From Balanoglossus misakiensis (lineage: Eukaryota; Animalia; Hemichordata), in the NCBI GenBank assembly GCA_040954595.2, contig CM082578.2, forward strand, positions 7,487,519 to 7,551,518: a DNA stretch of 64,000 bases, given 5' to 3'. Position numbers and translations under genes: made by a program. Below the pieces are notes generated by a model. It was not told the origin of the DNA, searched no databases, and saw nothing but the letters and a program-made list of their open reading frames with translations. Each line of letters starts with the position of its first letter. The stretch's first letter is position 1. Below, one piece after another: positions 1 through 63,727 of this stretch.

Positions 1-267
1 ACATGTACATCTAACAAATTCAGCCACAGTTATCATTTGAAGTTGAGATCTAGACAATCACAGGTTTTCTCAGGGTTGCCACACGAAAAATTGCACCACC
101 AACATGAATAATCATTTGAAGACTGAGGCACGCCCTGTAAACAATATATCGACATAACCTTACGTAGATTAGGGGTGATTTTTATGCCTTTAACTAATAC
201 CATTTAATCAATTTCATTTTACATGGCAAAGTAAGATTTTCGTGTTCCATAGAATATCTTGTCTTAC

Positions 268-6200: not shown

Positions 6201-8157
6201 AGAATTTGATTTTGTACAGCATAAGGGAGAAAAGTTTTACCTGTGTGGTTTACTGCGTCATGGATGCATGAAGACTGGCATATCAACTTCAGCGATAACT
6301 AAACAGTATAAATGAACATAGTGATGACAAATGTGCTATCAATGGGGTTTAGTTTCAGTGTGATAGACCGAAATACTTGTTTTTCATAATTGTTGACCAT
6401 TTTGCTAAATTTTAAATAGCGCGTTTCCCCAAACACAATAGACTTAGAGTACACCTGTCAGTATAAATTACCAGAAACAATATGTGGTATGGTGATTCTG
6501 GTCAAATTTTGGTTGTCCTGCCAGAATTCGGAGCAGCACAATGAGATCATCATAACTTTAAAAAAACTCACTGTAATAAGTGTCTTATTGAAATTTCAGG
6601 ACAAAGTATGTCCTTTAGCTGTAGCTTTTCACACTTCACTTCTCTCAAATGACATACAGTCATTACCGTGGGAGAAACGGAGTGCAGTGATCTACACTAA
6701 TTGTCATGAATTGTCTCGCTTCGCTTGTCCTTGTCAATTCGTCAGCCCACGCATGATTTAAACTTGTTTGATCCGGGTAAGAATGTTTTAGATCAGAATG
6801 ATTTGATGTGCATCCAAAGGCTTCAAGTTGCAGTGCACAATGACAAAAAAATGTGACGTTGCTTTGAAAACCGTTGTCCAGCGGCCAAAGCCGGACGTAT
6901 ACAAGTTACCTTTCTTCCCTAAAACAATGTTTGGAGTAACACACAGAATGCGACATGAAAGCATTGAACAAGACCCCTCTTATATACTAGTACGCACAGT
7001 TGACTGCCTATATGTGACATGCGCACAATATTGCCGGTGCACGCGCAGGTGTGTCGCTGTCGGGGCTGCTCAGAATGTGGTCAATTTAAGCGCGTCTTTG
7101 TCTCGATGATAATGATTTCGTCGAAATGAAAATAACCAAAATAATGTAAAATGTTCTTGTCACATTAAATTGTTCACAAATAACTCCTTACGCCGCAAAC
7201 CTGCATTTATGACTTCGAAGAAATAACGAAGTTGATGAAACTCCGTCAAGACTATAAGAAGATACATCATAGTCCGACGCATAACAATTTTATAAGTGTC
7301 ATAAATGCCTATCTCGATCATCTATCCCATATATATGTTTTCAAAATGCACCAAGACAATAATTTTTCTTAGAACCGGATATTTTCTCCGTGGAAGAGTC
7401 TACTTTCTCAATAAAAACGAGCACCTGTCTTGTTCGAGCATATCAGACCTCGTCGTTCAGAATTCAATCATATGAAAACGGTGTATTATGTCGCAAATGT
7501 TGTTAAATTCAACATTTCAAACTTACAAAGAGTTTATATCTTATACTGGACATTTTAATGTGATAAAAAAATTAAATTAATCATATTATCGCGCAAAAGT
7601 GACAATCGGCGGTTCAAATAACCGTACTAGTTTCAAAATGATTACATTTCAGAGCGGCGGGCATTCTATGAACGACGAAGTCTGTAATGAAGTTGTGTAA
7701 TCCGATTTCTCGTGATGGACCCAGAAAAGAAAAAAGACGACTCGGTGTCGGAGAGTTTACAGATGTCGTGACATTACATTATAAGCGCTGACACCTCAAT
7801 AGCTCAATTGGCCTAAACACCACGTAATGAAATTCCGCCTCGGCTGTGCCACTAAACCATATGACGCACGATTATAAACTTCTAAACACGAAACAGCTTG
7901 ATGATAGCGTGTGATTACAGTTAAAAATACTAAATTATATTCACCGACACAAAAAATCTTTCTTGGGGCTATTTTGGTCACCCCGGAATATTGATACGCT
8001 GTCTTAAACACTAATTTCGTTAAAAATTATGAAGTGTTTTGTAATGCAAAAATATAAAAAAAAGAACTTAGAAGAAAATTCACTCACCAAATATTTCTTC
8101 GCTTTGTAAAAGGACCAGAGTAAGAATCAAGGCGCAAATCACTTTTGTCGTCGACAT
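268..8157 (-). CDS. Gene A: long non-classical cadherin (CDHR3/4-like cadherin-repeat protein), 5' part only; continues beyond the left edge
   Basis: Hand-assembled exons in transcript order: 8157-8088 (signal peptide MSTTKVICALILTLVLLQSEEIF), 4812-4625, 4398-4004, 3691-3471, 3330-3097, 2840-2608, 2165-2003, 1702-1125, 753-657, 524-268. All have AG/GT boundaries and matching phases. They encode about 7 cadherin repeats with xE(N/D), DxD, LDYE and DVNDNPP motifs. Exon sizes 188, 221 and 97 nt match genes B and/or C. Confidence 0.9.
8088..8157 (-). CDS. Gene A exon 1, signal peptide
   Basis: ATG at 8157, hydrophobic core VICALILTLVLL, phase-1 donor G|GTGAGT that fits the phase-1 acceptor at 4812. 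Too short for the ORF track. Confidence 0.8.
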
Positions 8158-10352: not shown

Positions 10353-10431
10353 ATGGCGTTGGAGCGAATTGGCGGTTTGTTGTTGTTGCTGATCTTGGTG
10401 ATTCTCCAAAACCGACCAGTGAATTCCCAGC
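10353..10431 (+). CDS. Gene B exon 1, signal peptide
   Basis: MALERIGGLLLLLILVILQNRPVNSQ followed by the phase-1 donor C|GTAAGT, which joins TT at 13913 to give L-C-S-I-S-Y. Confidence 0.85.
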
Positions 10432-13400: not shown

Positions 13401-16400
13401 GGGGTTCGAAGTGGTATTTCCTTTGTCTCATCCAACGGCACGGTTCAGACTTTGAGATGATGGATATGTGTTACCACGTGCCAAACTACAGGCTATGAGA
13501 CATAGCACGGGCAATGAGATGTACTACCTCAGGTTAAAATAAAACAAACTACCATCATCTGATCAGCAAACATCCATGTGCAATGCTGTGTTTGATAATT
13601 ACAAATGCCGATTAAATCGCGTGGTTGCAAATGAACAAGAAATTGTTATGAAACTCGCCCAAAGCAACTCGTGTTCTACAACCATATCTCATGAAAAATA
13701 AGTGTTAGCAAGTTTCATAAAATTCATAGCAAAACTTCACCAATGTACGCATGTAATATCAGTTAATCAACATGACAGACTACCAAATGTCTCAAAGCAC
13801 ATTCAGATCTCTGGGAGATCAATATATGTACAACATGAATTCTGGATTAACGGTGCTGATTGCGCAAATTCGCATAATTTGCTTATCTTTTTTTGTATTC
13901 ACGTACATATAGTTTGTTCTATATCATACACCGGAAGTCCATACCACATCAACGAGAACAGCATCCTGGGTACCACAATCGTCGACACATCTGACTTCAC
14001 TGCTACGTTTCCCGAAGGCGCTGCAAGTCCGGCGTTTGAAATCACGTCGGCCACAACCCTGTTTGCAGTCGTCGGGTCAACAGGAGTGGTCAGTGTTTTA
14101 TTTTCCACTCTTTGCATAAAGCTACCAGATATTCGTGTGTATTTTGTTTACACTTGGTGATTAAGAGGGGCTAAGTGTAATGCATTGCTTTTGGCGCGTT
14201 CACCCTGCTCGCTTATCATGCAATATAAATGTCTACTACACCCTGGCTTCTCGATGAACTAGATAACTTGGCTAAACTCCAAAGAAACGTCGAGGGCGAT
14301 GCGCAACATAAAACATTCCGACACAGTGGCTGTTTGGCTGTCAAATGATTTCAAAGGTGTTCATCACAGAGCCCTGCTAAGTTATGTTTTAATTTATCAA
14401 TTAGAGTAGCATTTCTTATATTTGCTCTTGATGTTTTCAGATATATGTCGAATCCGCCTTGGACTACGAAACAGATGGCGGCGCTGGCATTTCCGTCGAT
14501 GTAGCGTGCCGACAGGTCACTAACAACGACTCTACTTCCTCAATAACCATCTTCATCGACGACGTAGTCGAACGTAAGTGCCAGACATTTGGAGCAGAAA
14601 CGAGTGCAGAATCAGAGGCAATCGGATCAGGGATACCGAAGCAGCGAAAGGAAAACAGTCGAGAATCATTTGAAAATGAGTTTTACTTTCATTATTGACA
14701 AACAAATTTATTCAAATTTACGATAAAATGTGTTGTTTTTGGTTTTGCCCGTTGTTAGAAACTTTGGTGCTAATGTCATGTTTGTATTTGTTATGTCCGG
14801 ACAGCCTGCTCTGTCAGCTGGACGGGGCAGCCATTTCCGGTGCAGGAGAACTCGGCGTCTTCCACTCCAATCATCACTACCGGTGACATCAATGGCAGTT
14901 TCCCGGAATCCAAGGCTGCAACTGCGTTCGCAATCACAAACGTTAGCCCGGGCCCGTCCGATCTATTCTCAATCGATGCAACTACAGGCGCCGTAAGTAC
15001 AGTGACCACCCTAATAAATTGATATAATTTGCAGCTAACATATGCCTAAATGCGCTCTTCAATCGGCTATGAAAGTATTGATGTTTTTAAGTTTATTTTC
15101 CCAAAATATGTTATAGATACGCTAAGAAATAATATTTATGCATTTTGTTTTAGATATCAGTCGGCAGCCAAATTCCTGACTACGAGGCGCATGGCGGTTC
15201 AAGTCAGACGATAACGGTGACATGTTACCAGGTGTCTGGAAATAGCCAAGCTCAAGATGTTGATGTCGATATTCAAAACGTTGATGAAGGTAACGTTAAA
15301 CGTCATGACTAAGCACAAAGATAGATAGATGTGTGTGTTACGTCCTCTCTGATGGGGTACTATACCTGTAGCGTAGGCCCTACGTTCATTCATTTTTGTG
15401 CAGCAGCTATTGATATCTGACTACTGTATACTCTTTCTCCCTTCAAACCATGTAGCCTGTTCCATCACGCTGACAAACCCCACTTACTCAGTGGTTGAGA
15501 ACACTGTTTCCGGTTCTACCATCATACCTCTGTCACACATCACAGAAAGTTTCCCGGAAGGGCCCGCAACTCCGAGTTTTGTGATTGCAAGTGTCACCCC
15601 AGGACCAACGACACTTTTCGCCGTCGACGATTCCACCGGTGTGGTAAGGTTACTCTATACGATTTGCTTCCTTTACATTATACTTTTTACCCGATTTTTC
15701 GTTTATCTCTAAGTCTAATAACGATCCCTATGTCAAATCAATTGGTTAATTAATTAATTAACAAACATATCTCATCCTTATATTGAAGCTTAACGTCGGC
15801 AGCACTGTACCAGACTTTGAGGGTCACACAACATCCCAGACTGTGGACATTCAGTGCAAGCAAGCATCGGGCGTTGATGCCTCTGTTTCTGTTACAGTAA
15901 CCATCACAGATGATCCTGAACGTAAGTCTGTAGAAACACGACGGTGCACGTATTTCCCCTTGCATTCAATCACCGTGATTGTATGTTTTTATCCAATATT
16001 TATTACTTTAAATCTTGGCTCAAATATGAACCGGTGTAACCTTTACATAGATTATGAGCCGACATATAAATTGCACACTCAACTCTTGAGATGATTTCAT
16101 AGTCAATCTGATGAAAATGTTGACCAACTTGAAATTGACAATTTCGGATACACCATATATAACTTTTTTCCAGCAAATGAAGTTAGTATTTTCTTCTCAA
16201 AAACACGGTATAGGCTAATATTATAACTGGAATATCTTGAATTTGTTTTCGAATCAGCGTGTACCATAGCCTACAGCGGAGGCCCGTACACTGTCACCGA
16301 AAACACGAACACAGGACAAATCGTCATTGACGCTGCCGACGTAGTCTCTCAGTTTTACGAAACCCGATCATCGCCAGCTTTCTCAATCTCGGCCGTCAGT

Positions 16401-19400
16401 CCAGGTGCAGCCACGTTGTTTGCAATAGACGGAACGACGGGAGCGGTAAGTCGTGTACAAGCACAAATCCGTTTCAGTTGACCTGATGCAGAATTGAACA
16501 AACTTATAGGTTGTACATGTAATATTCATGTACCTGAAATGCACGTCACGTGCAAGCAACTGGTATGCACGTTTGCGAGACGGTTGGGGATTGGTTGGTT
16601 GATGCGAGGGTCTCGGAACGTTGCTTATGATTGGTCTACACCTTTCATCGAGTAAATCTTGAATAACAAGTGCGTTCGCGTGAATGCAGTACCTTGCGAG
16701 AACAGACCTGGCTGGGAGCATAACATTAACAAAAGAGGCATATTTATATATAAAATAGCATACTCGTCAAACTTAGGGGAATTCTCAGGTTGCTTACGAA
16801 TCACACCTATAATCTTGCGAGACTTCAACGGTTCAGTCCAATTTTTAATGTTCAATAAAATTATTGAAACTTACTGTAATTTTCCACTTACCTAGATTCT
16901 GGTTGGTTCAACCTCGCCGGATTTTGAGACTGACGTAACCATTCAAACTATAACCGTGTCATGCCACCAGGACAGTGGGAGGGATAACACTTACGACGTC
17001 ACTGTTACAATTGTGAATGTCGTTGAGGGTAAGTTAACTATTCCATTCCCATGGAAATAAGAAAACGCCCTGGGTTTCATTTTAGCACATTCACTGTGAT
17101 TATACCTGCTGCAGTACAATCACAGTTTCATGTTGTATATGTACTATATTGCATGAATGAATGTTGACGTTTACTATACTGTAGTATTCATGCCGAAAAT
17201 TGTCCTACCCTCACCGAGACCGTTTCCATCAGAGAGAGCGAGTTGAAATACTCCCGTTCCCTATATAGCTGCGTGCTGTACACAATAGTTGTGATTGGGT
17301 ATTAGGAGGGAAACTTTAATGTAATGCATATAAAAAAAATAAAGGGGGGTTAAACATTTCAGGCCCTTAACGGTACTTGTTGTACATTTCCACCTAGATT
17401 GTTCACTAAATTGGCCGGCTCAACCGTTTGGTATCGACGAGAACACAGCAACGTCAACAGCCATCGTCAGCGCTGGGGATTTTTCAGAAACGTTCCCGGA
17501 GACAAAGGCCGCTGACCCGTATGACATCACTGCAGTCAGTCCGGGGCCTTCGACGCTGTTTTCAATCGATCGAGCGACTGGTGTGGTAAGTGTCCGCCAC
17601 TAATATCAGCATTACACATTAAAGAACTGGTCGGACCGCCGCGATTAAACCTTCCATTCGGGTTATCGTTCAATGCTTTGATTTTCATTATCCTTCCGAA
17701 TCGAAGATATAGGCTATATCTGTGATGTGATTAATCTGTTAATGCAAAGTGAACGTGACACGGTTGGGGTTGATATAGCTTGAAATATGCATTAACGTTT
17801 TTTTATGGACACTTTTTACGGTTGCAGATTTCGGTTGGTAGCGAAGTATCGAACTACGAGAGCCATGGTCCGAGTCAGACAATAACGGTGACGTGTTATC
17901 AGGCGTCAGGCTCCAGCCAAGATCAGGATGTTGTAGTCGATATAAACGACGTAGATGAAGGTAAAAATATTCATTCAACTGGGCGCTGGATTGGCGTTGA
18001 TCACCGAATCATAAATATCAGCATTTGAATAACGTGAAAAATATTAAAATCATCATTTAACTTTTAAATCATATATATATTTTCAGCATGCTCCATCACC
18101 TTGTCATCTGCGACTTACTCGGTAACCGAGAACACAGCTTCCGGTTCTGATATTATTCCTTTTGGAGACATCACAGAAGATTTCCCGGAGGGAGAAGCTA
18201 CCCCTAAATATGTAATTGCTTCAGTTACTCCGGGACCGCCGACGCTTTTTGACATCGACGCCACCAGCGGCGTGGTAAGCAACTTCTATCTCAGCTCTTA
18301 CCTGTATAAGTTCACGAGAAAATTTGACTCGACTTTCCTTCTCTAGTTATTTTATTTCTCCTCGGACAGCGTCTAATTACATCGGGCATTGTTTGAATTA
18401 CAGCTGAAGGTTGGGAGCACTGTTCCCGACTATGAGACTCACGCTGCAACTCAAACGGTCGAAATCGAGTGCAAGCAGACGACGTTCGTTGATGGCTCTA
18501 TATCTGTTCCTGTCACCATTGTAGACGACCCTGAACGTGAGTTACCAAGCACTTCCATTCCAAACCTAATTTGCCCCCCCCCCCACACCATTAACCAGTT
18601 AGATGTAAATGCGAAAAATGCGTGATAAACATGTAATACTATATTTTTGTATTTTCACAGCATGCAGTGTATCTTACAGCGGAGGCCCGTACACTGTCAC
18701 CGAAAACACGAACACGGGACAAATCGTCATTGACGCTGCCGACGTAGTCTCTCAGTTTTACGAAACCCGATCATCGCCGGCCTTTTCAATCTCTGCCGTC
18801 AGTCCAGGTGCGGCCACGCTCTTCGCAATAGACGGAACGACGGGAGCGGTAAGTTGTTTACAAGTACAAATTCTAGCGCCTTAGAATTGATCATTTACTT
18901 GACATATACTCGAAATGCACGTCACGTGCAACTGGTATGCACGTTTGCGAGACGGCCGGGGATTGGTCGGTTGGTGTGAGGGTCCATGCCTTTTGTCGAC
19001 TAAATCTTGAAGCAGGTGTACAACAAGTGCGCTCGCGTGAATGCAATACCCTACGAGAAAAGACCTTGCTAGGCGCATCACATAAACAAAAGAAGCATAT
19101 TCTCGCCGATTATTTAAAATTGATATATAAAATAGCATATTGGTCAAACTTAGGGGAAGTTTCAAGTTGCTGACGAATCACAGCTAATCTTGCGAGACTG
19201 CAACGGGTCAGTCCAATAAAATTATTGATTTTTACTGTAATTTTCCACTTACCTAGATTCTGGTTGGTTCAACCTCGCCGGATTTTGAGACTGACGTAAC
19301 CATTCAAACTATAACCGTGTCATGCCACCAGGACAGTGGAAGGGATAACACTTATGACGTCACTGTTACAATTGTGAATGTCGTTGAGGGTAAGTTAACC

Positions 19401-22400
19401 ATTCCATTCTCGTGGAAATTAGAAAACGCTCTGGGTTTCATTTTATCACATTCACTGTGATTATACCTGCTGCAATACAATCTCAGTTTCATGTTGTATA
19501 TGTACTATATTGCATGAATGAATGTTGACGTTTACTATACTGTAGTATTCATGCCGAAAATTGTCCTACCCTCACCGAGACCGTTTCCATCAGAGAGCGA
19601 GTTGAAATACTCCCGTTCCCTATATAGCTGCGTGCTGTACACAATAGTTGTGATTGGGTATTAGGAGGGAAACTTTAATGTTATGCATATAAAAAAATAA
19701 GGGGGGGGGGGTAAACATTTCAGGCCCTTAACGGTACTTGTTGTACATTTCCACCTAGATTGTTCACTAAATTGGCCGGCTCAACCGTTTGGTATCGACG
19801 AGAACACAGCGTCGCCAACAGTCATCGTCAGCGCCGGGGATTTTTCTGAATCTTTCCCGGAGACAAAGGCCGCTGTGCCGTATGACATCACCGCAGTCAG
19901 TCCGGGGCCTTCGACGCTGTTTTCAATCGATCGAGCGACTGGTGTGGTAAGTGTCCGCCACTAATATCAGCATTACACATTAAAGATCTGGTCGGACCGC
20001 CGCGATTAAACCTTCCATTCGGGTTGTCGTTCAATGCTTTGATTTTCATTATCCTTCCGAATCGAAGATATAGGCTATATCTGTGATGTGATTAATCTGT
20101 TAATGCAAAGTGAACGTGACACGGTTGGGGTTGATATAGCTTGAAATATGCATTAACGTTTTTTTTATGGACTTTTTCTTCGGTTGCAGATTTCGGTTGG
20201 TAGCGAAGTATCGAACTACGAGAGCCATGGTCCGAGTCAGACAATAACGGTGACGTGTTATCAGACGTCAGGCTCCAGCCAAGATCAGGATGTTGTAGTC
20301 GATATAAACGACGTAGATGAAGGTAAAAATATTCATTCAACTGGGCGCTGGATTGGCGTTGATCACCGAATCATAAATATCAGCATTTGAATAACGTGAA
20401 AAATATTAAAATCATCATTTAACTTTTAAATCATATATATATTTTCAGCATGCTCCATCACCTTGTCATACGCGACTTACTCGGTAACCGAGAACACAGC
20501 TTCCGGTTCTGATATTATTCCTTTTGGAGACATCACAGAAGATTTCCCGGAGGGAGAAGCTACCCCTAAATATGTAATTGCTTCAGTTACTCCCGGACCG
20601 ACGTCGCTTTTTGACATCGACGCCACCAACGGCGTGGTAAGCAACTTCTATCTCAGCTCTCACCTGTATAAGTTCACGAGAAAATTTGACCTTCTCTAGT
20701 TATTTAATTTCTCCTCGGACAGCGTCTAATTACATTGGGCATTGTTTTAATTACAGCTGAAGGTTGGGAGCACTGTTCCCGACTATGAGACTCACGCTGC
20801 AACTCAAACGGTCGAAATCGAGTGCAAGCAGACGACAATGGTTGATGGCTCTATATCTGTTCCTGTCACCATTATAGACGACCCTGAACGTGAGTTACCA
20901 AGCACTTCCATTCAAAACCTAATTTGCCCCCCCCCCCCACCATTAACCAGTGTAAATGCGAAAAACTGGTGCCACTGTCTCGTACTATATCCAACTATAT
21001 AGCACATGACTAGAAAACGTTCATAAACATGTATATGCTATATTTTTGTATTTTCACAGCATGCAGTGTATCTTACAGCGGAGGCCCGTACACTGTCACC
21101 GAAAACACGAACACAGGACAAATCGTCGTTGACGCTGCCGACGTAGTCTCTCAGTTTTACGAAACCCGATCATCGCCGGCTTTCTCAATCTCGGCCGTCA
21201 GTCCAGGTGCGGCCACGTTATTCGCAATAGACGGAACGACGGGAGCGGTAAGAGTGTTATCTGTTTGCTTTTGTCACTGTGTATAGAGATGCCTAATAAT
21301 ATGTTTCCTTTTGTTTCCCGTCGTTCACTATATTGTGATGCCTGCAGACTCTGCCGCCAGCAAAATAAAGCATGTTTTCATGTACGACCATATGTTTGTC
21401 TTAAGCACTGTCTTCCATGGTTGATGTACATGTCGTGTTCAAATTAGCCTTTTACCGTAGCAAATTCTCTGAGCATGTATATTTTCACGTATTTACTGGT
21501 ATTAACATGTATTTCATGTATGGCATTTTATAACTTTTTCGGATTATATATTGTTGTCTATCTGTGTCTTGTTCAGGTTATGGTTGGTTCAACTCCGCCT
21601 GACTTTGAGACCGATGCCACCATTCAAACGTTAACCGTGTCGTGTCATCAGGACAGCGGAAGAAACGGGTCTGACACTGTCACAATCACCATACAGAACG
21701 TCTTTGAGAGTACGTGTCGAAGTTAATTTTTGTTATGTGCACAAAACGCAATTTTGTTCTGTCATTCTTTGCAGTATGCATTTAACCATAGACAGTATAG
21801 AGCGAATTTATGATTTCATTATAAATTCCAACATACTGACAACCCTTGAATATTTTTCCAGATTGTTCACTGACATGGGCAGGGCAGCCGTTTGCCGTCG
21901 ACGAGAACACAGCGTCCTCGACTGTCATCGTCAGTGCAGCGGATTTTTCTGAATCTTTCCCAGAGACGAAGGCCGCTCAGCCGTATGACATCACAGCAGT
22001 TAGTCCCGGACCCACGAATTTATTCTCAATTGAAAGAACAAGTGGAGTGGTATGCTATGAATGGATTTTGTAGAAACATAGACGAGTTCTCGGTTTAGTT
22101 CACGCGCCAAAATGTCTTGATTCGTTCACGTTAAACGCCAATTTCCCAATTTGAAAGTAAGGGAACAGATACCATGCTAAGAAAAGTTAACTTTCAATGA
22201 ACAATTAAAAGACTTCACATGGAAATCCTACGTTTCTAATGAACGTGATGATGATCGTGGTGGTGGTGGTGGTGGTGGTGATGATGATGATGATGATGAT
22301 TTTGTTGTTTTACCTGTACGTTACAGATATCGATTGGCAGTGAAGTACCAGATTACGAGGCCCACGGTCCAAGTCAGACAGTTACAGTCACGTGTTACCA

Positions 22401-25400
22401 GGCGACCGGTAATAATCACGTTCAAGATGTTGTCATCAACATCGACGATTTAAACGAAGGTAGGATATAGTCAGGGCACGCTTGGTCAGAGCTACTACAG
22501 AAATATGACATATCTACCTGAACAATTCTCACGGTGAATCTTCAGTTTTGCACAGGCGACCAAACGTTCATCCAATATCAATTTTCAGATTTCTATCCGG
22601 CCTTATATTTCAGTGTGCTCTCTTACGCTGGCGTACACTGCTTACTCGGTGGCTGAGAACACGGCCCCCGGTTCCGTCATAATTCCCCTTGGTGACGTCA
22701 CCGGAATCTTCCCGGAAGGAGCTGCATCTCCCAAGTTCGTGATTGCGACAGTGACACCCGGACCGGCGTCGCTGTTCGATGTCGACGGCGCTACTGGAGT
22801 GGTCAGTTTTCATTTTTTTAAATATGGCAGAAACAAAATGTTATCAGCAAAACATCGGTAGCAAAATCTCACAATGCATCATGGAGACACGGTCTTTCAA
22901 CTTCATTGATGTATATATTTACGAAAACCGATTTCTATGTAAACTGTACTCGATCATTGACTTGGGTGTCCGACGCTCTGTTCGCTGTCTATTCAAGAGG
23001 GGGGGGGGGGGTCGATAGACCGTTTTTTAGTTCGACACCAACTTTGATATTGAAGATTGGATGACATGCATGAAAGTCGACCAATTTCTTGATTGTGATT
23101 ACATGTATCTGTTTGTGATAACTGGTGTTTTGTTTTGGTTCGCTTTGATTTTGGTGTGTTTGTGGCACAAACCCGGCAGTTGAAAGTGGGAAGCACGGTT
23201 CCTGACTTCGAAAACCACCCGGTGACTCAATCGGTTGAACTTCAATGCAAACAAACCACAAGCAATGATAACATCACCACGGTCACTATCAACATCAGTG
23301 ATGAGGCTGAACGTAAGTGGACTTGAATAAAAATAATTAATCAGAATATACATTTAGAGCAGTTTTCTTAACAAACCAGGTCGAGATCCTTGTAACTGTC
23401 TTTTGGTATGTGAACTCTTCAAATTTAACCTTTCATGATTCTATAAAAGCGTCCTGTTCCGAGCAACTGTTTTAAACTTATAACAACCCTTTTATCGCTA
23501 CAGCCTGCACTCTGTCGTGGTCTGGAGGACCTTACTCGGTCGCTGAAAACACGAACTCGGGCGACATCGTCATCGATTCGGCTGACCTCGTCACGCAGTT
23601 CCCCGAAGGCGAAGCAGCGACGGCTTTTTCGATCACCGTCAGTCCGGGTGCAGCGACACTCTTTGACGTCAACCCGTTGACGGGAGCAGTAAGTTAATAA
23701 TGAGATTGTCCTTGACCTTCACGGCTAGCTACCTTCTCTTCCATAGCACTTTGGTCTAGCCCTGTGTTTAAAGTGGCGTTGCTTGACTCATCATGTACAG
23801 ACAAGTGTGCATTGTCTAGGTTGATAGTTTATGTAATGCATAGCTATATTTTGGACTATAATGAATCACCTCACTCTGTACACACATAAACACCTTGCAT
23901 GATTACCTACACCTGCAGCTATTAGTTGGATCGACACCCCCTGATTATGAAAGTGACGGCACCACTCAAACGATCACAATGTCCTGTCATCAGAGCTCGG
24001 GAAGGAACGGTTCTAACGTGATAACAGTCACCATAATTGATGTCGCTGAAGGTATGGTTAAAATCATCTCTTAATATGTATTAAATTAGCATGCAGATGA
24101 TATTTTCCTATCGTGACAAGAAGTCATACCAACATTTATATTATGTTTCACTAAAATCATACCTGTAAATATTCGTATATGAACATTATTATTAATATCT
24201 GTTTTACTGCTATATTAAATATTATTAATGGCTGCGATAAAAAATCAGAAATGCGTTTCTCTGTTTCAATATCTATGCAGCATGTGGAATAACTTGGACT
24301 AATGCGCCTTATAGTGTGGACGAAAACTCAGGACCCAATACACCTATTATCGCTGCCGCTGATGTAAATGGTACTTTCCCAGAAACCCCAGCGAGTCCCA
24401 AATATGGCATCAATCGCGTCGACCCTGGTCCAGGTGACCTGTTTAACATAGTACCAAATGATGGATCAGTAAGTATACTTTGATAAGTTTAATGGTGACT
24501 TGCTCTGTCCATTTTTGGAAGCATGTGCGCGTTTCTCCTTATTTTTATATAAATAACTCGACTAAACAAATTCTTAAAATGTCACCAACATAATGTTCAC
24601 ATTATAATGTCATAATACTTATATCTCGCCGTCGCAGATAACTGTCGGTAGCATCATACCAGATTTCGAGACGCACAGTCCGATTCAGACGATATACGTT
24701 GACTGCTTCCAAAATCCAGGTCTCGACTCCACCTTTACCGTCGACGTCACCATAAACGACATTGACGAAGTCGCGGAGGTGCGGAATCTGCCCGCGTCTA
24801 TCCGAATATCGGAATCTACGGCAGCGTCAGTGTCCGTCTTCAAGGTTTCGTACTACGACCAGGAAGGCGGGTCTGTCACAGTCGCCATAGCCTCGCAGAG
24901 TCCGGGCCTTCCAGGACCCGTGTTCACTATAGGCAACGCGGATGAAGTTATGACTCCGGCGGGACTGGACTATGATCTGGGCAGCAGAGTTTTTACTCTA
25001 GATATAACGTGAGGTTTTAAATCTTGTTTAACATAAAATAATAAACCTTTTCCACCAATTCTCCTGCTGGTGTCATGGAACTCGCGAAGTTTATTACAAA
25101 ACCTTAACGACTTCTCTAACTTCACCTCCCCCGTATCACTCCTTCAGGGTCGACGATGGTACTACCACCAGTGTCCCGTCTACCCTCCAAATTGATCTCC
25201 TGAACGAGTTTGACGAGGCGCCATTATTCGACCAGACCTCATACAGTGGGACCGTGGACGACGGAGATGGGTACGGCACACCTATAACCTGGACTGGGGC
25301 TGGCGATCCAGTGCTCGATGTAACCGATGATGACGTGGACGATATCTTGCGATATTATCTGACTGGTAATTAGAAGTGGAATTTGCTTTCCCGTGCATGT

Positions 25401-28400
25401 TTCCTGTTTTTGAACCTCCTCCAGTTCGATATTATTGAGTCTGTCTCGGATGAAAATCTACCAATTTTGCCAAATGTAATTCAGGTCCCATGCACACAAA
25501 GTACACTGTTGCCAGATTGTTTTCCATACTCATGCTGGTGTATTTTAGTCCCACGCTCGTCGAGGTTGACATCGACATCACACCCATTCTATTTTAAATC
25601 AAAGACTGACCTGCACAAATGTCCAACTATATTTATGGCGGCCAGGAAGTCGGCTCATGGTACTTGCGTCTTGTTCACTGGTCACTTGGGGTGACACAGC
25701 ATTTTAATTGTCATCGCTGAGATGAAACTCATAAACAAACTTCGAAGTTGGCCCCATTTTTCTAACAAATTGACACATTTTGTATTAACCCGCACAGGTA
25801 CCAACGCAGATCATTTCAACTGTGATCAGATGACTGGTTCCATATCAACGGCAAGGTCGGTGGAAGCCGATGGCGCTGGAGCCGTTGGGACGTACTCGTT
25901 GACGCTAACCGTTGTCGACTTGGCTGGGAGTAGTGCAACGACTGACGTCACCATTACTGTGAATGATACAAATGATAACTATCCTTTATTCAGCCCGGCG
26001 TTCTACGTCAGCAGCGTCCCGGAGAACAGCGCGGCAGGTAAGGTTCAGAACACGAACAAATACATGAGAGGACAACAGCGCATTCATTTGGGATGGGCAC
26101 ATTTTGATTTTTTAAGATTTTTCAGGAGTTTATGAGTCTCTCTGGGGTTTTTTTCAGCAAAGTACTTCAGCTCTTTATCGATAGTAGAGGTATCACTCGC
26201 GGTCACTCCAATAGGTGCCAGTGATATACACATTGAATTACTGTTCTACCTAATACCCATTGCAGGTGTCACGGCCGCCAGTCTTACCGTTTCTGACCTG
26301 GACACGGGAGCATTCGGTACAGTCATCCTGTCGATTGCCAGCGGAGACGGGGGGAAGTTCGCGCTGCTCGGAAACGACTTGGTGACCACGGCCGATCCCC
26401 TGGACTACGAAGCAGCCGACACGTACAACGTAATCGCCGTGGCTACTGACGGCGGCGGGCTCATCAGTTCAGCAACCGTCACAATTTATGTGAGTTGAGG
26501 CAGAGACTTGTAAGCTAAACATCAGACCATTACCCGTTAAATGAAAAACTAGAAAACTGGTTCTTTATTTTGACTTTACTCGACAGGTAACACCTGAGAA
26601 CGAATTTGCTCCCACATTCGCTTCTTTCCCGACCACTGCCGTCACAATCCCTGAAGATTCCGGTGCTGGGTTCGAGGTAGTGGCCGCTGCAGATATTTCA
26701 GCCACTGACAGCGACGGCGGAGTCGATGGGGAGCTCACCTTCTCAATCGTCGCCGTCACCGGTGAGTAATCGGTCGAGATAATAAATAAAGGCGCACATA
26801 TTTTATTGTTTTATCTAATGGCAAATGGATTAAACTTGATAGATATTTCAATGGAAAACAAAGGTTTTCCGCCACATACTTAACTTCTAATGCAAACATG
26901 AATCAGGGATCATTAAAAATTGGCTCTTTAAGTTAGGAGCATCACCAACTTTAATTTCATCTCCGTTAAACATTTCCTAACTTCAACCATAGGGGGAGCT
27001 CTGGACCGGTTCCACATGGAGGCCACCAGCGGCAGGATCACGACAGTCGACACATTCGATTACGAGAGCGGAACGACAACTTACACAGTAACTTGCCAGG
27101 TTCAAGATGGCGGCTCACCAACTCCGAGCGGCACCACGACCACTCTGGTGGTGAATATCGGTGACGTCAACGACAACGCACCCGAGTTCGACAGCAACTC
27201 TTACTTCGTCCCCGTATCAGAAGGCAGCGCGGTCGACACGGTGGTGAAAACATTCACCGTCAACGACGACGATTCCGCGAACTTCAGTTATCAGTTCGTG
27301 TCCGGCAATGACCTCGGCAAGTTCAAAGTAGACGACGCGACGAACGAACTTCGAATCAACTCCGTGGTCGACCTGGACGCCGGCGACCCGCCGAGTTACA
27401 CGTTGGTTGTTCGCGTCAGTGATGGCGGGTCGCCGGACCTCAGTGGTACATCCACCGTCTACGTCACGGTGACGTCGACCAATGATCACGCACCAATATT
27501 CGGGAACACAACACCTGTTGCGATAACGGTAAGCCGTTTTCTAAGCACGCCGACGTCAGTAATATTATACATGTATAGGCGTGCATTGTTTATAATCTAT
27601 AGGATCCACGCCCCCCTATCCACGCCCCCTCTCAACCATCCTTTCCCTCGAGGAAGATGACTGTGAGTTGATTACACCGTTTATTTTCAGATCACCGAAT
27701 CTGATCCTATTGGTACCTCGGTTGCTGTAGTGAATGTTGCTGACGGCGATTATGGACCTGAGGGTGACGTGGTTCTCTCCCTCGAGAGTGAGTACCCGAA
27801 GCTTAGCGATCTAGCATGTTCGATAGATCTCCCATTTGTATCTGTATTTTCGTTGTTTCAATGTTATGTATTGCCAACTTTGTCTGCGTGTCTTCTCAGA
27901 TGGCGACACCTTCGACAATTTTCGACTGGATCCAACGAGCGGTCTAATCGAGATCAAGTTACCCGTGGACTTCGAAGACACCGGCACTCCGATTACACTG
28001 ACCGTCAAAGCCACGGATGGCGGGACACCGGCAAACACGGCGACGCAGGACATTTCCATCGCCGTTACCAATGAGAACGACAACATTCCTACCTGTAATC
28101 CCATGGTCTATGTGGAATCCATTCCGGAAACGTCGGTGGCCAACTCGAGTGTAAGTGAGCGATTCTACACTACTATACATGATCGTTCTGTCTGTCTACC
28201 TCTCTGTCTGTCACGATAAAAAATTTCACCACTTGTATTTAGGTTGTGCAACTTAATTGCGAAGATTTGGACGGAACCGGACTATCCTACCGGTTCAAGT
28301 CTGGCAACATTGGAAACAGTTTTGACGTTTACAGCAATGGATTTATCACAGTGGCGTTATCAGGTAAACCATTCATTGCCATGGCTTAGTTACAAGTCTG

Positions 28401-31400
28401 AGCGGATGACATGTGGTAGAGTACTGATATTGTCAACAGTCGCTTGTTTTTTGTTCTGCAATGAAAGGTCGTTATGTCATACTCTGGCGGTTTTTTGTGG
28501 GGGGGGGGGCTCAGCCAAAATATTAATAAAATCATAAATTTTGTCAACGTCTAATAACATGTTGTTGGACATTTCTATGAGCACGCAAGGTTGGCGCGAA
28601 CTAAAATGAAGATAAACTGCAACATCTACCCACAGAATTCTGATTCTTTGCAATTTCTATGCAATCGTAACCTGCAAGTGGGTCACATTTATTGCAGTTT
28701 TCATATACAATCAACCTGTTTTTATCATACCAGGTACCCCCCTTGATTACGAATCCGGGGTCATCCTTTATCAGATGGTTGTCGAAATCGATGACGGTGA
28801 TAATTTGCTAGACGTGGAAGTCACAGTGAATATCCAGGCTGAAAATGAATATCCTCCCGCCTTTTCTCCCGCTTCGTGGACGACAAACATCACGGAAGAA
28901 TTTCCAGTGGGTGACGTCATCATCTCTTTGTCGAATTCGGTAAACGATAGCGACACTGGGGGACACGGTGTTGTCGAGTATCTAATCAATTCAGGTAAAA
29001 AAATATCAAAACTCTAACACCATCTCTGTCTTTCTATCGATTCTTTATTATTTTATCTGCCTGTTTGTCTGACTGACTGACTGACCGTCTCTCCGTCTTT
29101 TTGTCTGCCAGTTTTATTCTTAATTCCGAGACTAAATTGTTCTTTCTGTTCCAGTGCTACCAAACAGCGGCGCATCATTATTTATGATCGACAAAAACTC
29201 AGGCGACATCTACCTCGTGCAAAGTTTAGACTATGAGGACCAGGCTTCTTACATTCTCACGGTACAGGCAAAAGATGGCGGCGGCCTAACCACGCCAGCT
29301 ACCATCACGTTGGCCGTGGATGACGTCAACGACAACAGCCCTACATGCCTTCAATCAAGATATGACCGCAACGTCAGTGAAAACACTTGTAAGTATGATA
29401 CCCATACGAATGGGAGTGGCTTATGATCACATTTACTGCAATAGGTTATACTGCAAATATGGCAACTCATCTTTTTTTTTCCAGATCCCTACATTGCCGT
29501 GAGTATGGCCGACTTGGGCTGCACTGATATCGATTCCGGTACATTTGGCACCTCTGGTCTGACTTTCACTCTTGTCAGTCAATCGCCATCATTTGACTTC
29601 GAAGTAACCGTGCAGGGCGTTTCTCTCGTAGGTAAGTTGTTAGTGCAGGTGACTGCACCGCAGATTTTCAAAATTCATCGCTAGAGTACTCGATGGACTG
29701 GTGATTGCGCTGGTGTCCTCTTCAGGGGTATACACGTGTGAGAAAAGCATCAAAATTGTGATATTTTAATTGTGTAATATTTGAAAATGAGTGTTTCTCA
29801 TTTTTCAGCTAATACTCTGGACTTTGAAAGCGCGGACAGAGAGTACGATCTCGTCTTACGCGTGTCGGATGCCGGGTCACCACCGCTGTCAGTCGACGTC
29901 ACGATTACAGTAACTGTTGATCCCGTCGACGAGGGGCCACCCGCGTTTCCGGGGCCTTACTCCGCCGCTGTGAGTGAAAGCGTCCCCATAGGCACCAGTG
30001 TTGAAACGTGCGTCGCCAACGACCCCGACTCCGACGACACGGCCGATGGTCAGGTGACCTACTCGGTCACCAGCGGGGACCCCGGCGGTTTCTTCAGGAT
30101 CCGGACTACAACCGGTGAAGTGACGACCGCGAAAAATCTCGACGCAGAAACGACGGCGCGCTTTGACCTGGAAATCACGGCCGTCGATGGAAACGGAGGC
30201 TCTGACGTCGTTACTCTGACCGTCACTGTATCCGACGATAACGATAATACCCCGACTTGCGCGAATTCCACATTTGCCCAAAATGTGGACGAGAACACCT
30301 TGCCGCTTGTCGTTTATTCACTGGACTGCTCCGACAGCGACCAAGCCGACTCCTCCCTGAACTACGCCCTCACCTCGGGAGACACTACCAAGTTCGGCGT
30401 CAACGCGAACGGCGAGGTCTATCTGCAGTCAGCGCTGGACTATGACGCCGCTGGCGTCCCAAGGAATTATTCACTAGAAGTGACAGTTGAAGATTCTGCG
30501 TCTAATACCTTCGTCGTTCAAGGAACAGTTCACGTGCAGCCGGTCAATGAAGACGTACCATCCTTCGTTCCGTCGAGTAAGAAAACTTTTGTTTTGAAGC
30601 AAAAGTGCTTACTATGTATTTGGATGTCTGCGTTTGGTGATGTCAACTGAATAGTATTTTTTGTGTACGACAGAGAGTGCTACTTTGAATGAATGTGTAA
30701 ATCGTGCTTTCGATTCCAATTTTTCGTGTGACTTTTTCACCCGTATTGCGCAAACGGCGTATACATTTTGATCAGGCATGGTTGGTTCGACACCCGAAGA
30801 CAAAGCCTATAAAATCAGTGTTTTTAACATTCTGTGTGACAGACGATAATGACTTTTTGTATTAAAAAGATGTACGTGTATCAGCATATTCAATTTATTT
30901 CCACAGGCGTGTATTCGGTCAGCATCCCGGAAAACATAACTGCCGGGACTCTGGTGATCACCGTTTCAGCAGAAGATTCAGATTCTGCGGACACGCCCGA
31001 TGGTGTGGTCGAGTACGCGTTGGATTCGTCCTGCAACTGCCCGGAATTCCACCTCGATACATTCTCCGGCAAGGTCACCACTCTGCTGCCGTTCGACTTC
31101 GAGACGGAATCGTCGTACACGCTGGACATCCAAGCGTCGGACGCCGATAACATGGTCACCGGCGCCATCCTCGTCACCGTTACAGACGTCAACGACAACC
31201 CTCCGGTCTTCAGTTCGTACGTTTACAAGTACGTGGCTTATATTTTCAGTTTCCGCTGATTGGTTATTTTTCTGTCCGTGTCCATAACTTTCTTCAGATA
31301 TATCATATATCATTCAAGTCCCATTAACACCCGAAACAAGTGGCGTGTTTAAGAGAATCGGGGGAGGGGGTGGAAGTGTTTGTTCGGGTTTGCCATTCCC

Positions 31401-34400
31401 GGCCAAAAATGAAAATCGCTTCCTGCAAGGTTCTCTAAACTCGTTGTAACCATACTTATTTCAGTGGCTCGGTCGAAGAGGGTGTGGCTGCGGGACAGCT
31501 GATCACGACTGTAACTGTGATGGACCAAGATTCGGCAACTGACGACAATAATGTCATTGTTCTTTCCATAACAGGTGAGGTACAATTTCACAGTATTGTA
31601 TAGGACATGTATTGAGTTGCGCTTTGAAGATAAGTAGCCGAACATCCCCGATTTATAATAAGTCATCAAAGGTTGTCGGTTTTGGACTAAATAGTTTTGG
31701 ACTACATATATCTTAGATACACTCAGCATACATACACATGTACGTGAAAATTGTGATTTCATCTTTTTGGGATTGTATGTCTCAAGAAAATCATCGTTGA
31801 AGTGGCACATTTCAGCACTTGGTGATCTTGAATTTGTTTGCTTTTGTCTTGGCTTGGTTCTCGCCTTGAAAATCGATTAAAATGTGCCCAAACTTCATAT
31901 TTCGTAACATTTTTTTTTCCTTTCTAAGGTGGCGATTTATCATCGGTATTTACCGTGGACTCGGCTTCTGGCTATGTCACCACGACAAGTCCCGTCGATT
32001 ATGAGACCACCCGGAATGCCACCTTAGAGATCACGGCATCTGACAGGAATGGAGCCCCCGACGGCAATAGTGCGAAAGCATACGTCATTGTGGAGGTCAG
32101 GCCAGTCAACGAGGCAGATCCCGTTTTCCAGTCGACACCATACGCAGTCAACGTCACTGAAAATACATCCCCCGGAACATCAGTTTTTCAGGTCTCAGCG
32201 ACGGATTCAGATTCCGACTCTCATCCCCATGGCCAGATCAAGTTCAGCATCACGGCGGGGAACGCAGATGGCCGATTCTCACTGGACGAGCAGACCGGCG
32301 AGGTTTTCGTCGCTGGAATTCTGGACCGTGAAACGACCGATACGTACACACTCACAATCGAGGCGGCGGACAGCACGGTTGCGCTTGGTGACAGTCGCAC
32401 AGCAACTGAGAACCTGGTTGTCACCGTTGAGGACACGAACGACCACGCCCCGGTTTGCCTTTCGCAGCCGTATTTTGCCCCGGTGTCAGAGGCCGTTGCC
32501 GTCGGAACGACAGTGATGACGCTAACAGTTGCAGACGACGACGCGGGTATCAATGCTGAATTTTATTTCACCAAAGGAAGCGGGGATCCCGATGATGATT
32601 TCATAGTCGTTGATGACAAAGTTGTCGTCGCACAACAGTTGGCGTATGAAATCACGCCATCTTACGCGATTAATGTGGTTGTCGCGGATCTCGGTTCGCC
32701 GTCTTTATCGACGGAGTGTCCAGTTTATATCGCCCTGTTGCCTGAAAACACTCACCCGCCGGCGTTTCCGATTTCGGCGGATGTCGTGTCGCTGTTCGAA
32801 TCGACAACCGTCGGGACTCTCGTCTACACCGCCGCAGCAACTGACGCCGACGGCGTGGGTGAACATGGCGACGTCTCGTACAGCATCGCGAGCGGCAACG
32901 ACTTGGGCAATTTCTTAATCGACGCGCACACCGGCAAAGTCTTCATCGGTAAACTCTTGGATGCAGAGACAGTCGACACGTTCTCGTTGCAGATAATGGC
33001 CGCTGACGGAAACCTCACCTCGCAGACAACGTTGAACGACACGATGATGTTGGGGGTCGTCGTGTTGGACGTGAACGATAACAACCCGGTCTTTACGCAG
33101 CCGGTGTACGAGGCCACCATACCGGAAGACTTCCCCGCCTACGACACCGTTGTACGAGTAGAGGCGACGGACGCGGACACCGGCAGCAACGGGAACATAA
33201 CTTACAAAATCGCGGGGTTTTCTGGCGGTGGTGCCTTCGCCATCGACTCAGTAACGGGGGACATCACAACCACCGGCTACGTGGATCGCGAAGAGAGGAG
33301 TTTCTACCCCGTCGGCGTCGAAGCCTGGGACGACGGCACCCCGGCCCGATTTTCCACGGCAGTCGTGAAGATAACCGTAGAGGATATAAACGACAACTTC
33401 CCCGCAGTGTCACCACAGAATCTGACCGTCGGCATACCCGAAGACTCGGTCGCCGATTACATGGTGGCGCATCTGTCGGCCACGGATCGCGATATCGGAG
33501 AAAACGGCAACGTCTCCTTTTCGATAGCCGGTGGAGACCCGCTGGGACAGTTTTACGTCGATTCCACGCTAGGGACGGTACACGTTTCAAATGTTGGACT
33601 CGACAGAGAAGTGCAAAGCGAGTAAGTAAGACTTTCCGAATCCTCTTCGGGTGTGGGCTCTTTACGTAGTTTGTTATCCCTAGCTTAACTCAAATCGCCT
33701 TTTCCCGAGTGTCAAAGCTTCCTTTTGCCCGTCTTCCCATTTCTCTCATTACTGAAATGATTACTTATTGACCTTCTCTTCTTTTTTTAAATTCCTATTT
33801 TGGTGGATTTTACAGATTCCTTCTGGTGATAAACGTGAGCGATCATGGGTCGCCCTCTCTGGCGACCACAACCTTCCTGACGGTGGTCCTATCCGACATC
33901 AACGACAACGCGCCGGTAATCGATCCGGGTTTCTACGCCGTTTCCGTAGACGAAGGCACCGTTATCGGAACAGTAGTCTGCACCGTCATGGCAACTGATC
34001 CTGATACAAACGATAATGGCAAACTGACATTTGGAATTACGTCAGGCAATGAACTCGGTAAGATAATTTTCGAAAAATAAAATGTGTTCGTTGTTGAATC
34101 ACCAGTCGCTGTGAATACTCCCCCCTGACTTCACATTAAATTTACCAGTTTCTTTTCTTGCATTTTTCATCATTTGTCACGATGATTATTAAATCTTCTC
34201 AAATTGGATTGACTTGCCAATTTTTTAAATGCGTTTGTTGTCTGTATTTTCGGTCGTTTACAGGTCAATTTGCAATCGATACAGGTTCTGGGGTTGTTAC
34301 AGTCGCGGGCGCTTTAGACATCCGTATAATGGAATTTTATAGTTTGGTCGTCGTTGTTCGAGACGGAGGTACACCATCACTGTCTTCAGCAACCACAGTC

Positions 34401-37400: not shown

Positions 37401-37761
37401 CAGCGCCTCCAACGGGGATAACAGCAGGAAGACTGGATGGCGACACTTTGCTCCAGGTATGTATGGCTGTAAATGTGACATATTCATTATGATTTCTTGT
37501 AACTGCGGTAAAAACAGGTCTTTCTGAAAGTATTGTTTACATTTCACAGTCTTCTGACGTACATTGATTTCTCAATTTGGCGCCTTTTACTTCCACTTGC
37601 ACGAGCTCAATATATGTACAATTGATTTCACAGACGAAGACGCTGAGAAGAGAGAAAGGAGATGGCTAGCTTTACAGAGGAAGATCGGTACATCTCTGCC
37701 GCCCGAGAAGTCAACGAAGTCCCTTAATCAGGGTGGTGGTAATCAACTCGACCAGTTCTGA
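10353..37761 (+). CDS. Gene B: giant single-pass cadherin, about 4128 aa: signal peptide, 14 atypical Cys-pair repeats, 22 further cadherin repeats, membrane-adjacent domain, TM helix, short cytoplasmic tail
   Basis: 53 exons: 10353-10431, 13913-14088, 14441-14573, 14805-14992, 15154-15289, 15456-15643, 15789-15921, 16258-16445, 16896-17028, 17398-17585, 17828-17960, 18087-18274, 18404-18536, 18661-18848, 19257-19389, 19759-19946, 20190-20322, 20449-20636, 20757-20889, 21060-21247, 21577-21709, 21862-22049, 22327-22459, 22614-22801, 23180-23312, 23504-23688, 23919-24051, 24281-24468, 24638-25008, 25148-25365, 25798-26037, 26266-26489, 26587-26761, 26993-27528, 27691-27787, 27900-28150, 28243-28363, 28734-28994, 29155-29388, 29485-29631, 29809-30576, 30907-31228, 31465-31574, 31929-33621, 33816-34057, 34264-35229, 35411-35735, 35914-36065, 36480-36672 (TM), 36895-36944, 37149-37210, 37384-37456, 37634-37761. 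Sum 12387 nt (divisible by 3), all GT-AG, ends ...GGGNQLDQF-stop. Confidence 0.9.
16272..21251 (+). repeat. Recent direct tandem duplication, period about 2.36 kb (three modules including introns), about 2.1 copies
   Basis: Matching exon offsets 16896/19257, 17398/19759, 17828/20190, 18087/20449, 18404/20757. The introns are also nearly identical by eye. The ORF track shows duplicated shadow ORFs (17739 vs 20092; 16383 vs 18881). Confidence 0.93.
22258..22300. repeat. (GGT)n(GAT)n compound microsatellite
   Basis: Directly visible in an intron of gene B. Confidence 0.9.
36480..36672 (+). CDS. Gene B transmembrane exon
   Basis: PWWQVWWGLLLIGIICVVAVVVIIAVILFVYCCCCRDKSK: a hydrophobic helix followed by a Cys cluster and basic residues. 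Confidence 0.9.
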
Positions 37762-40859: not shown

Positions 40860-62913
<22,054 letters not shown>

Positions 62914-63668: not shown

Positions 63669-63703
63669 CTCTTTCGGAGGATGTGGTGGCCCTGAAAAGG
63701 GCC
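63669..63703 (-). terminator. Histone mRNA 3' stem-loop plus downstream element of the second H1 gene
   Basis: GGCCCTTTTCAGGGCC at 63703-63688 followed by ACCACATCCTCCGAAAGAG; identical to the signal at 51177-51211. Confidence 0.95.
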
Positions 63704-63727
63704 ATTTTGGTTTGGATTTAAGTATCT

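What the first reader, a model, noticed from the sequence alone, without database searches (positions are those of the whole stretch)
13913..24770. 14-fold expanded, phase-symmetric N-terminal domain cassette on a CDHR3-like cadherin: candidate variable recognition or extensible-tip system
Seen: genes A and C have one atypical first domain (188-nt exon plus the start of the next exon). Gene B has 14 tandem copies, adding exactly 26 exons (53 vs 27), while the rest of the gene is exon-for-exon colinear with C. Every a-exon is phase 1-0 and every b-exon phase 0-1, so any a-exon can join any downstream b-exon in frame and give a complete chimeric domain. The purely combinatorial ceiling is the number of compositions of 28 into odd parts (317,811 in-frame paths), or 14 if only one tip domain is kept. 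Known: in cadherins the N-terminal domain usually sets binding specificity, human CDHR3 EC1 is the rhinovirus-C binding site, and Dscam diversifies half-domain exons. Inference: this is either a Dscam-like or length-variable splice cassette, or a constitutive multivalent tip of about 1,400 extra aa, possibly used in adhesion, self/non-self recognition or pathogen decoy. I do not recognise this architecture from described cadherins.
Basis: partly seen in the sequence, partly recalled or inferred. Interest (0 to 1): 0.9.

Follow-up and report, generated by a model that had tools for sequence, protein, structure and literature searches.

The report
Repeated tip domain in acorn-worm cadherin
An acorn-worm adhesion-protein gene carries 14 tandem copies of its outermost domain, added in blocks of three and differing in number between species, which likely lengthens the protein rather than serving as a splice-shuffled recognition library.

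Summary
In detail: gene B (53 exons, 4,128 aa) has 14 two-exon copies of an atypical N-terminal cadherin domain ahead of 22 ordinary repeats; paralog C has one. The host is an acorn worm. The copies are three types in fixed order, expanded as triplets at DNA level: 8 in Ptychodera, 14 here, at least 9 near-identical in Saccoglossus, fragments in Glandiceps. The newest triplet is about 3% diverged and present in reads; the sample's second haplotype lacks, or is under 90% alike across, exons b11-b13. Old copies are under purifying selection. The Dscam-like reading is untested, since no RNA run was listed, and has no positive support: the phase symmetry is what any in-frame duplication needs, ordinary gene C gives 12,526 in-frame paths too, no docking site was found, and near-identical copies carry no repertoire. 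Best reading: a constitutively spliced, calcium-poor, likely flexible tip extension whose length evolves by unequal crossing-over. 'CDHR3-like' is a fold-level tie only. I found no paper describing it. The scan earlier noted exon-duplicated cadherin-like arrays in other genomes, unchecked here.

The parts
10353..10431 (+). Gene B exon 1, signal-peptide-like, ends in phase 1
13913..14573 (+). Module 1 (a 13913-14088, b 14441-14573); divergent first copy in the Z register
14805..15921 (+). Modules 2 (X: 14805-14992, 15154-15289) and 3 (Y: 15456-15643, 15789-15921)
16258..18536 (+). Modules 4 (Z: 16258-16445, 16896-17028), 5 (X: 17398-17585, 17828-17960), 6 (Y: 18087-18274, 18404-18536)
18661..20889 (+). 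Modules 7 (Z: 18661-18848, 19257-19389), 8 (X: 19759-19946, 20190-20322), 9 (Y: 20449-20636, 20757-20889); recent copy of modules 4-6, 94-97% identical in protein
21060..23312 (+). Modules 10 (Z: 21060-21247, 21577-21709), 11 (X: 21862-22049, 22327-22459), 12 (Y: 22614-22801, 23180-23312)
23504..24051 (+). Module 13 (Z: 23504-23688, 23919-24051)
24281..25008 (+). Module 14, the ancestral tip position (a 24281-24468; b is the start of the 371-nt exon 24638-25008); groups with the single tip of gene C
16272..20965 (+). Recent tandem duplication of one 3-module unit (16272-18618 and 18675-20965, offset about 2.4 kb), introns included
21993..24325 (+). Stretch (end of a11 to start of a14) that the sample's second haplotype lacks or carries at under 90% likeness
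24770..35450 (+). 22 canonical cadherin repeats of gene B (limits approximate)
35411..36672 (+). Membrane-adjacent domain with an RRLL motif, then the transmembrane helix (exon 36480-36672)
36895..37760 (+). Four cytoplasmic exons of gene B (short tail)
40860..62912 (+). Paralog C: signal exon 40860-40926, single tip domain (44134-44321 plus start of 44669-45033), 22 canonical repeats
1..8157 (-). Paralog A, cut by the window start: signal exon 8157-8088, single more divergent tip domain (4812-4625 plus start of 4398-4004)

Best explanation
Gene B is a long single-pass cadherin whose two-exon tip domain has been multiplied at DNA level into an array of three types in fixed order, and the array is likely spliced straight through to give a longer, probably flexible and possibly multivalent outer segment. 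Shown: 14 copies with period 3; different copy numbers in four acorn worms; a recent triplet duplication; homogenised a-exons; purifying selection; a cadherin fold; loss of two of the five calcium motifs. Inferred: copies three apart are the most alike, so unequal crossing-over keeps adding or removing triplets, and only phase 1-1 units keep the frame, which accounts for the phase symmetry without alternative splicing. Predicted: the two invariant cysteines (strand A start, strand F end) form a disulfide, and the joints bind little calcium and bend. At 4.5 nm per repeat the ectodomain would reach up to about 160 nm against about 105 nm for gene C. The likely role is reach or avidity on an epithelial surface; the ligand and tissue are unknown.
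For: Gene model and phases. Types 58-97% identical within and 33-48% between. Ptychodera flava model XP_070557431.1 has 8 modules in the same order; the Saccoglossus model P0153 has 9 full modules in near-identical triplets; Glandiceps fragments repeat the first triplet. Tree: Y clade 99/98, first-module clade 100/98, last-module clade 100/98, Z clade 88/89. dN/dS 0.07-0.25 in the 14 of 18 same-type pairs that are computable and not the recent X or Y pair. Introns of the recent copy differ by 0-4% (5 introns); a4, a7 and a10 are 96-97% identical while b7 and b10 differ at 20 of 31 synonymous sites. Contigs hold sequence unique to each copy, and summed depth there is about 78 against 39 upstream in run X1. 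Single-module model pLDDT 93, cadherin fold Z 12.6. DXD motif in 0 of 14 modules against 21 of 22 canonical repeats. No docking hub above shuffles; 12,526 in-frame paths in ordinary gene C.
Against: Cassette acceptor sites score somewhat lower than constant-exon sites (5.65 against 7.57 bits, p=0.03; donors p=0.08; copies not independent), which would fit some skipping. The X type was not resolved as a clade. The ortholog proteins are automatic, fragmented gene models, so their all-modules-in-order form is weak evidence of real splicing, and the near-identical Saccoglossus copies sit with records on an 8.2-kb scaffold and could be partly assembly artefact. Three types kept distinct at about 40% identity in three families suggest type-specific roles that a pure spacer does not need. 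The triplet model's domain orientations are uncertain (pTM 0.55), and the disulfide distance was not measured.
Confidence: 0.7

Rival explanations
1. The array is also a regulated length switch: whole modules or triplets are skipped in some tissues or stages, as in titin-type repeat regions, giving a ladder of ectodomain lengths.
For: Every module is a phase 1-1 unit, so skipping keeps the frame. Cassette acceptors are somewhat weaker.
Against: No isoform with other module use is annotated: 1 member in the Ptychodera cluster, and 3 Glandiceps isoforms that differ only in start point and a 2-residue tail insertion; the annotation is fragmented, so this is weak. Copy number already varies at DNA level.
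Confidence: 0.17
2. The array is a polymorphic recognition surface (self/non-self or microbe-facing) diversified by DNA recombination: haplotypes differ in module number and sequence, and the differences matter for binding.
For: The second haplotype lacks or is under 90% alike over 2.3 kb, and differs at 10 of 105 bases inside exon a3. Independent recent expansions in three lineages. The recent Y pair has 7 replacement against 3 silent changes, dN/dS 0.77 (too few to test).
Against: No pair has dN/dS above 1. Saccoglossus copies are nearly identical. Heterozygosity is also high in introns and in the ordinary exons, so it is not specific to the array. One sample only.
Confidence: 0.09
3. Dscam-like combinatorial cassette: one a-exon is joined to one downstream b-exon to build chimeric tip domains as a recognition repertoire.
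For: Such joins are in frame. The tip domain folds like N-terminal repeats such as CDHR3 EC1 (tied). Module 10 shows that same-type halves of different history can coexist.
Against: Exons alternate a-b and adjacent joins are in frame, so nothing enforces exclusion; introns are 120-450 nt; no docking element. Halves are type-matched in 26 of 26 ortholog modules. Homogenised copies would give almost no diversity.
Confidence: 0.04

Closest known systems
Tandem internal duplication of phase 1-1 modules (exon-shuffling framework; Ig and FN3 arrays of titin-like proteins) - recalled, not from a call
   Same: Frame-symmetric module multiplied in tandem with a higher-order period, by unequal crossing-over and conversion.
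   Different: The multiplied unit is the atypical N-terminal domain of a cadherin, two exons per domain, not an internal spacer repeat.
Long non-classical link cadherins CDH23, PCDH15, PCDH24/CDHR2, CDHR5 (PMC8691648, bioRxiv 10.1101/460097; passages read)
   Same: Long chain of repeats, membrane-adjacent domain, single helix; tip domain with cysteines on strands A and F, as described for PCDH15 and CDHR5 EC1.
   Different: These have one tip domain. The module profile does not match PCDH15 EC1 (below 0 bits in 7 of 7 sequences), and the membrane-adjacent profile does not match vertebrate CDH23 or PCDH15, so the likeness is analogy.
Human CDHR3 EC1
   Same: Top structural match of the single module (Z 12.6, rmsd 2.2, 101 residues, 18% identity).
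   Different: [quoted passage not shown]
Arthropod Dscam1 mutually exclusive exon clusters (PMC5740500; passages read)
   Same: Half-domain exons, many related copies.
   Different: Dscam clusters are runs of like exons of which one is kept; here a- and b-exons alternate and read through in frame.
C. elegans CDH-8 nanobristles (PMC9214534; passages read)
   Same: A cadherin ectodomain needed for length-defined surface projections that space microvilli; an analogy for a reach or spacer role.
   Different: Nine repeats, no amplified tip; relationship not tested.
Uncharacterised invertebrate 'protocadherin Fat 4-like / cadherin-23-like' models of acorn worms, molluscs and a sea anemone
   Same: Share the RRLL-type membrane-adjacent domain (E 1e-26 to 5e-12 in proteins outside the profile); acorn-worm orthologs share the array.
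   Different: Outside acorn worms no fetched protein scores above 41 bits on the tip module, against 67-146 within (one unnamed 72-aa record scores 80).

Membership tests
Cadherin superfamily | Cadherin repeats with the seven-strand fold, single transmembrane helix | tested here: met
   22 canonical repeats; Pfam PF00028 above cut-off on module arrays; module model matches cadherin repeats at Z 10-12.6
Cadherin superfamily (canonical joints) | Calcium motifs XEX, DXD, D(R/Y)E, XDX, DXNDN at each joint (motif list from 10.1101/460097) | tested here: not met
   Modules keep XEN (14 of 14) and D[YF]E (12 of 14, NYE in 2); DXD 0 of 14; a cysteine loop in place of XDX; linker ends in x-x-E
Dscam-type mutually exclusive cassette | Cluster of neighbouring like exons in one reading frame | tested here: not met
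   a- and b-exons alternate; neighbours are unlike and complementary in phase
Dscam-type mutually exclusive cassette | A mechanism of exclusion (branch point under 50 nt from the donor, frameshift on co-inclusion, docking and selector pairing) | tested here: not met
   Introns 120-450 nt (branch points not mapped); co-inclusion in frame; best hub 12, 7 and 4 introns for 8-, 9- and 10-mers against 10-13, 5-7 and 3-5 in 12 shuffles
Dscam-type mutually exclusive cassette | Junction reads bridging skipped exons, none joining neighbours | not testable with these tools
   No RNA holder listed
CDHR3 orthologs | Sequence relationship to CDHR3 | tested here: inconclusive
   No CDHR3-named protein among 93 hits; solved CDHR3 matched at E 1.3; first but tied in fold search; no tree with CDHR3
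Cr-3 tip cadherins (PCDH15, CDHR5) | EC1 with an A-F strand disulfide | tested here: inconclusive
   Two invariant cysteines per module (28 in 14 modules) at the start of strand A and end of strand F in the model; distance not measured
Cr-3 tip cadherins (PCDH15, CDHR5) | Sequence homology of the tip domain to PCDH15 EC1 | tested here: not met
   Module profile scores below 0 bits on the N-terminal domain of 7 of 7 PCDH15 sequences
Classical cadherins | Catenin-binding cytoplasmic domain | tested here: not met
   No PF01049 in the Glandiceps ortholog P0002; short unrelated tail in gene B

The most novel reading that the evidence does not exclude
An acorn-worm-specific variable receptor: the cadherin's binding tip is amplified in triplets, reshuffled between haplotypes by unequal crossing-over and conversion, and further varied by module skipping, so that individuals and cells display tips of different length and make-up for self/non-self or microbe recognition.
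Probability: 0.13. Interest if true: 0.8.

Novelty: new variant of a known kind. Interest (0 to 1): 0.45.

Why it matters
Cadherins normally have one specialised tip domain. Here that domain has been turned into a chain, kept in a three-type order across three acorn-worm families, with copy number still changing. It gives a natural test of whether tip domains without full calcium sites can be strung into an extender, and of how cadherin reach evolves. The gene is split into pieces and mislabelled in public annotations (two adjacent Ptychodera records, 'Mucin-22-like' in Saccoglossus), which may be why it has gone unnoticed. It would matter much more if haplotype or splice variation proved to drive recognition in a sister group of echinoderms.

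Tried and rejected
Expression and splicing: no RNA holder listed; this is no evidence either way. No whole genome is held. Assembly artefact for the 2.4-kb duplication: judged unlikely, because contigs carry the sequences unique to each copy and summed depth roughly doubles; no contig spans the array, and the tool warns that depth is no copy number. Clean 11-module allele: not shown. The reported joint 21992 to 24326 is 86 nt out of register and would frameshift if direct; the tool marks the letters between as unknown, and its shorter side is only 28 letters. Docking-site pairing: 330 inverted-repeat pairs, the 25 longest scattered, no hub above shuffles. PCDH15-EC1 homology: my own first guess, not supported by profile scores. 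Pfam on isolated half-exons: no cadherin hit for 5 of 5. ESM Atlas: only generic cadherin clusters. The VIA comparison of the triplet model was not obtained; Foldseek gave TM 0.27-0.39 to straight cadherin fragments, uninformative at pTM 0.55. Alignments A3 and A5 were out of register and not used. Literature: 10 searches found no description of this array; subscription journals are not covered and no supplements were read. No complex prediction was run.
Full report
Observation. I rebuilt gene B from the sequence. It has 53 exons and one open frame of 4,128 residues: a signal exon, 14 modules of an a-exon (phase 1-0) and a b-exon (phase 0-1), 22 canonical cadherin repeats, a membrane-adjacent domain, one transmembrane helix and a short tail. 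Paralog C has one module and the same 22 repeats, and its exons match B's one for one up to the transmembrane exon; its last exons I placed only roughly. Paralog A, on the minus strand and cut by the window start, has one more divergent module.

Host and family. The large exon 31929-33621 finds acorn-worm proteins first (Ptychodera 62%, Glandiceps 52%). A profile of the a-exons against 1.84 billion representatives gave 31 hits, 8 at E below 1e-10. Scored with a full-module profile, 15 of 191 fetched proteins exceed 60 bits: 14 named acorn-worm records and one unnamed 72-residue record; the rest stay at or below 41. The membrane-adjacent domain with its RRLL motif also occurs in mollusc and sea-anemone models but did not match vertebrate CDH23 or PCDH15. 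So B belongs to an uncharacterised invertebrate family of long cadherins, and the tip module appears confined to acorn worms within what was searched.

The array has period three. Modules 2, 5, 8, 11 (X), 3, 6, 9, 12 (Y) and 4, 7, 10, 13 (Z) are 58-97% identical within a type and 33-48% between types; modules 1 and 14 are distinct. The Ptychodera flava model XP_070557431.1 has 8 modules in the same order, one with a shortened a-half; the adjacent record holds the rest of the gene. A Saccoglossus model has 9 full modules plus partial ends in almost identical triplets. Glandiceps fragments show the first triplet repeated, and a separate model begins with a Z half and the last module. In the tree Y, the first module and the last module form well-supported cross-species clades, Z is moderately supported (88/89) and X is unresolved. 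The triplet is therefore older than the split of three families (several hundred million years, recalled), and three lineages have added triplets independently. The ortholog counts rest on automatic models and are lower bounds or, for Saccoglossus, possibly inflated by assembly.

It is still changing. 16272-18618 is repeated at 18675-20965 with five introns only 0-4% different, and a4, a7 and a10 are 96-97% identical although b7 and b10 are old paralogs, which points to gene conversion. Two DNA runs of one sample contain sequence unique to each copy, and summed depth there is about twice the upstream level in X1, so a false duplication is unlikely. In the same runs a contig joins 21992 to 24326, and in X1 six successive bins sit at single-haplotype depth on one 2,165-base contig without a variant. 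The second haplotype thus lacks about one triplet's length, or is under 90% alike there. I cannot say which: the letters between are unknown, the short side is 28 bases, and a direct join would be 86 bases out of register and frameshifted.

Selection. Of 18 same-type pairs, 2 are saturated beyond calculation, 14 give dN/dS 0.07-0.25, and the recent X and Y pairs give 0.36 and 0.77 on 10-12 changes. All copies look like maintained coding sequence; none shows positive selection.

Structure. A single Saccoglossus X module folds confidently (pLDDT 93) as a cadherin repeat. CDHR3 EC1 ranks first (Z 12.6) but ties with 15 other entries. Each module has two invariant cysteines, at the start of strand A and end of strand F, the arrangement reported to be disulfide-bonded in PCDH15 and CDHR5 EC1 (PMC8691648, passages), but sequence homology to PCDH15 EC1 was not detected. 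Against the canonical calcium motifs (10.1101/460097, passages), modules keep XEX and D[YF]E and lack DXD (0 of 14, against 21 of 22 ordinary repeats) and XDX. That is expected of a first domain, which has no upstream joint to serve. Chained together, such domains are predicted to give calcium-poor, bendable joints. The triplet model does not settle the geometry (pTM 0.55).

The splice-cassette idea. No RNA run was listed, so it is untested. The sequence gives it little support. Mutually exclusive clusters are runs of like exons with some block on co-inclusion (PMC5740500, passages); here unlike exons alternate, co-inclusion is in frame, introns are 120-450 bases, and no intron segment pairs with more other introns than in shuffles. 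Phase symmetry is the condition for any viable in-frame duplication. The 317,811 paths are real arithmetic, but 22 ordinary exons of gene C give 12,526 and 21 of gene B give 9,582. Halves match in type in 26 of 26 ortholog modules, and homogenised Saccoglossus copies could encode almost no repertoire. On the other side, cassette acceptors are somewhat weaker than constant ones (p=0.03, copies not independent), so occasional module skipping remains open.

Prior knowledge. Ten literature searches found no account of this array; an echinoderm cadherin survey (PMC10734073, passages) lists ten cadherins and notes poor hemichordate assemblies. Subscription journals and supplements were not seen. Earlier notes of this scan describe one-exon-per-domain cadherin-like arrays in other genomes and reached a similar exon-duplication reading; I did not check them, and no look-alike DNA was on file.

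Verdict. A real, apparently undescribed and conserved architecture: a cadherin tip domain amplified in triplets with variable copy number. The mechanism that made it is familiar, and the Dscam-like reading is unlikely but untested. New variant of a known kind; interest 0.45.

Noticed in passing
window 51240-51782 (minus strand): Intronless histone H1-like gene with a 3' stem-loop, nested antisense in an intron of gene C.
   Followed up: partly
window 63700-64000 (minus strand): 3' part of a second H1-like gene with the same stem-loop, cut by the window end.
   Followed up: partly
window 35411-36672 and 59128-60479: Membrane-adjacent domain with an RRLL motif, no Pfam match for its first exon, shared with mollusc and sea-anemone long cadherin models; possible cleavage site.
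   Followed up: partly
proteins P0016 and P0141: A fourth paralog with a single tip domain in Glandiceps and Ptychodera, on contigs of the same length as the B orthologs, so the cluster may hold four genes.
   Followed up: partly
window 4812-4625 and 4398-4260 (minus strand): Gene A's tip lacks the strand-F cysteine and has a second cysteine in the a-half, unlike its Saccoglossus counterpart P0128.
   Followed up: no
protein P0123, residues 664-751: The Ptychodera model's seventh module has an a-half about 17 residues short: an alternative donor or a prediction error.
   Followed up: no
window 10200-28400, run X1: Where both alleles are laid, the non-window allele has about twice the depth (27-34 against 16-17) in X1 but about equal depth in X2; unexplained.
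   Followed up: no
window 26525-26880: A joint and several long loose ends suggest insertion polymorphisms in two introns of the ordinary part of gene B.
   Followed up: no
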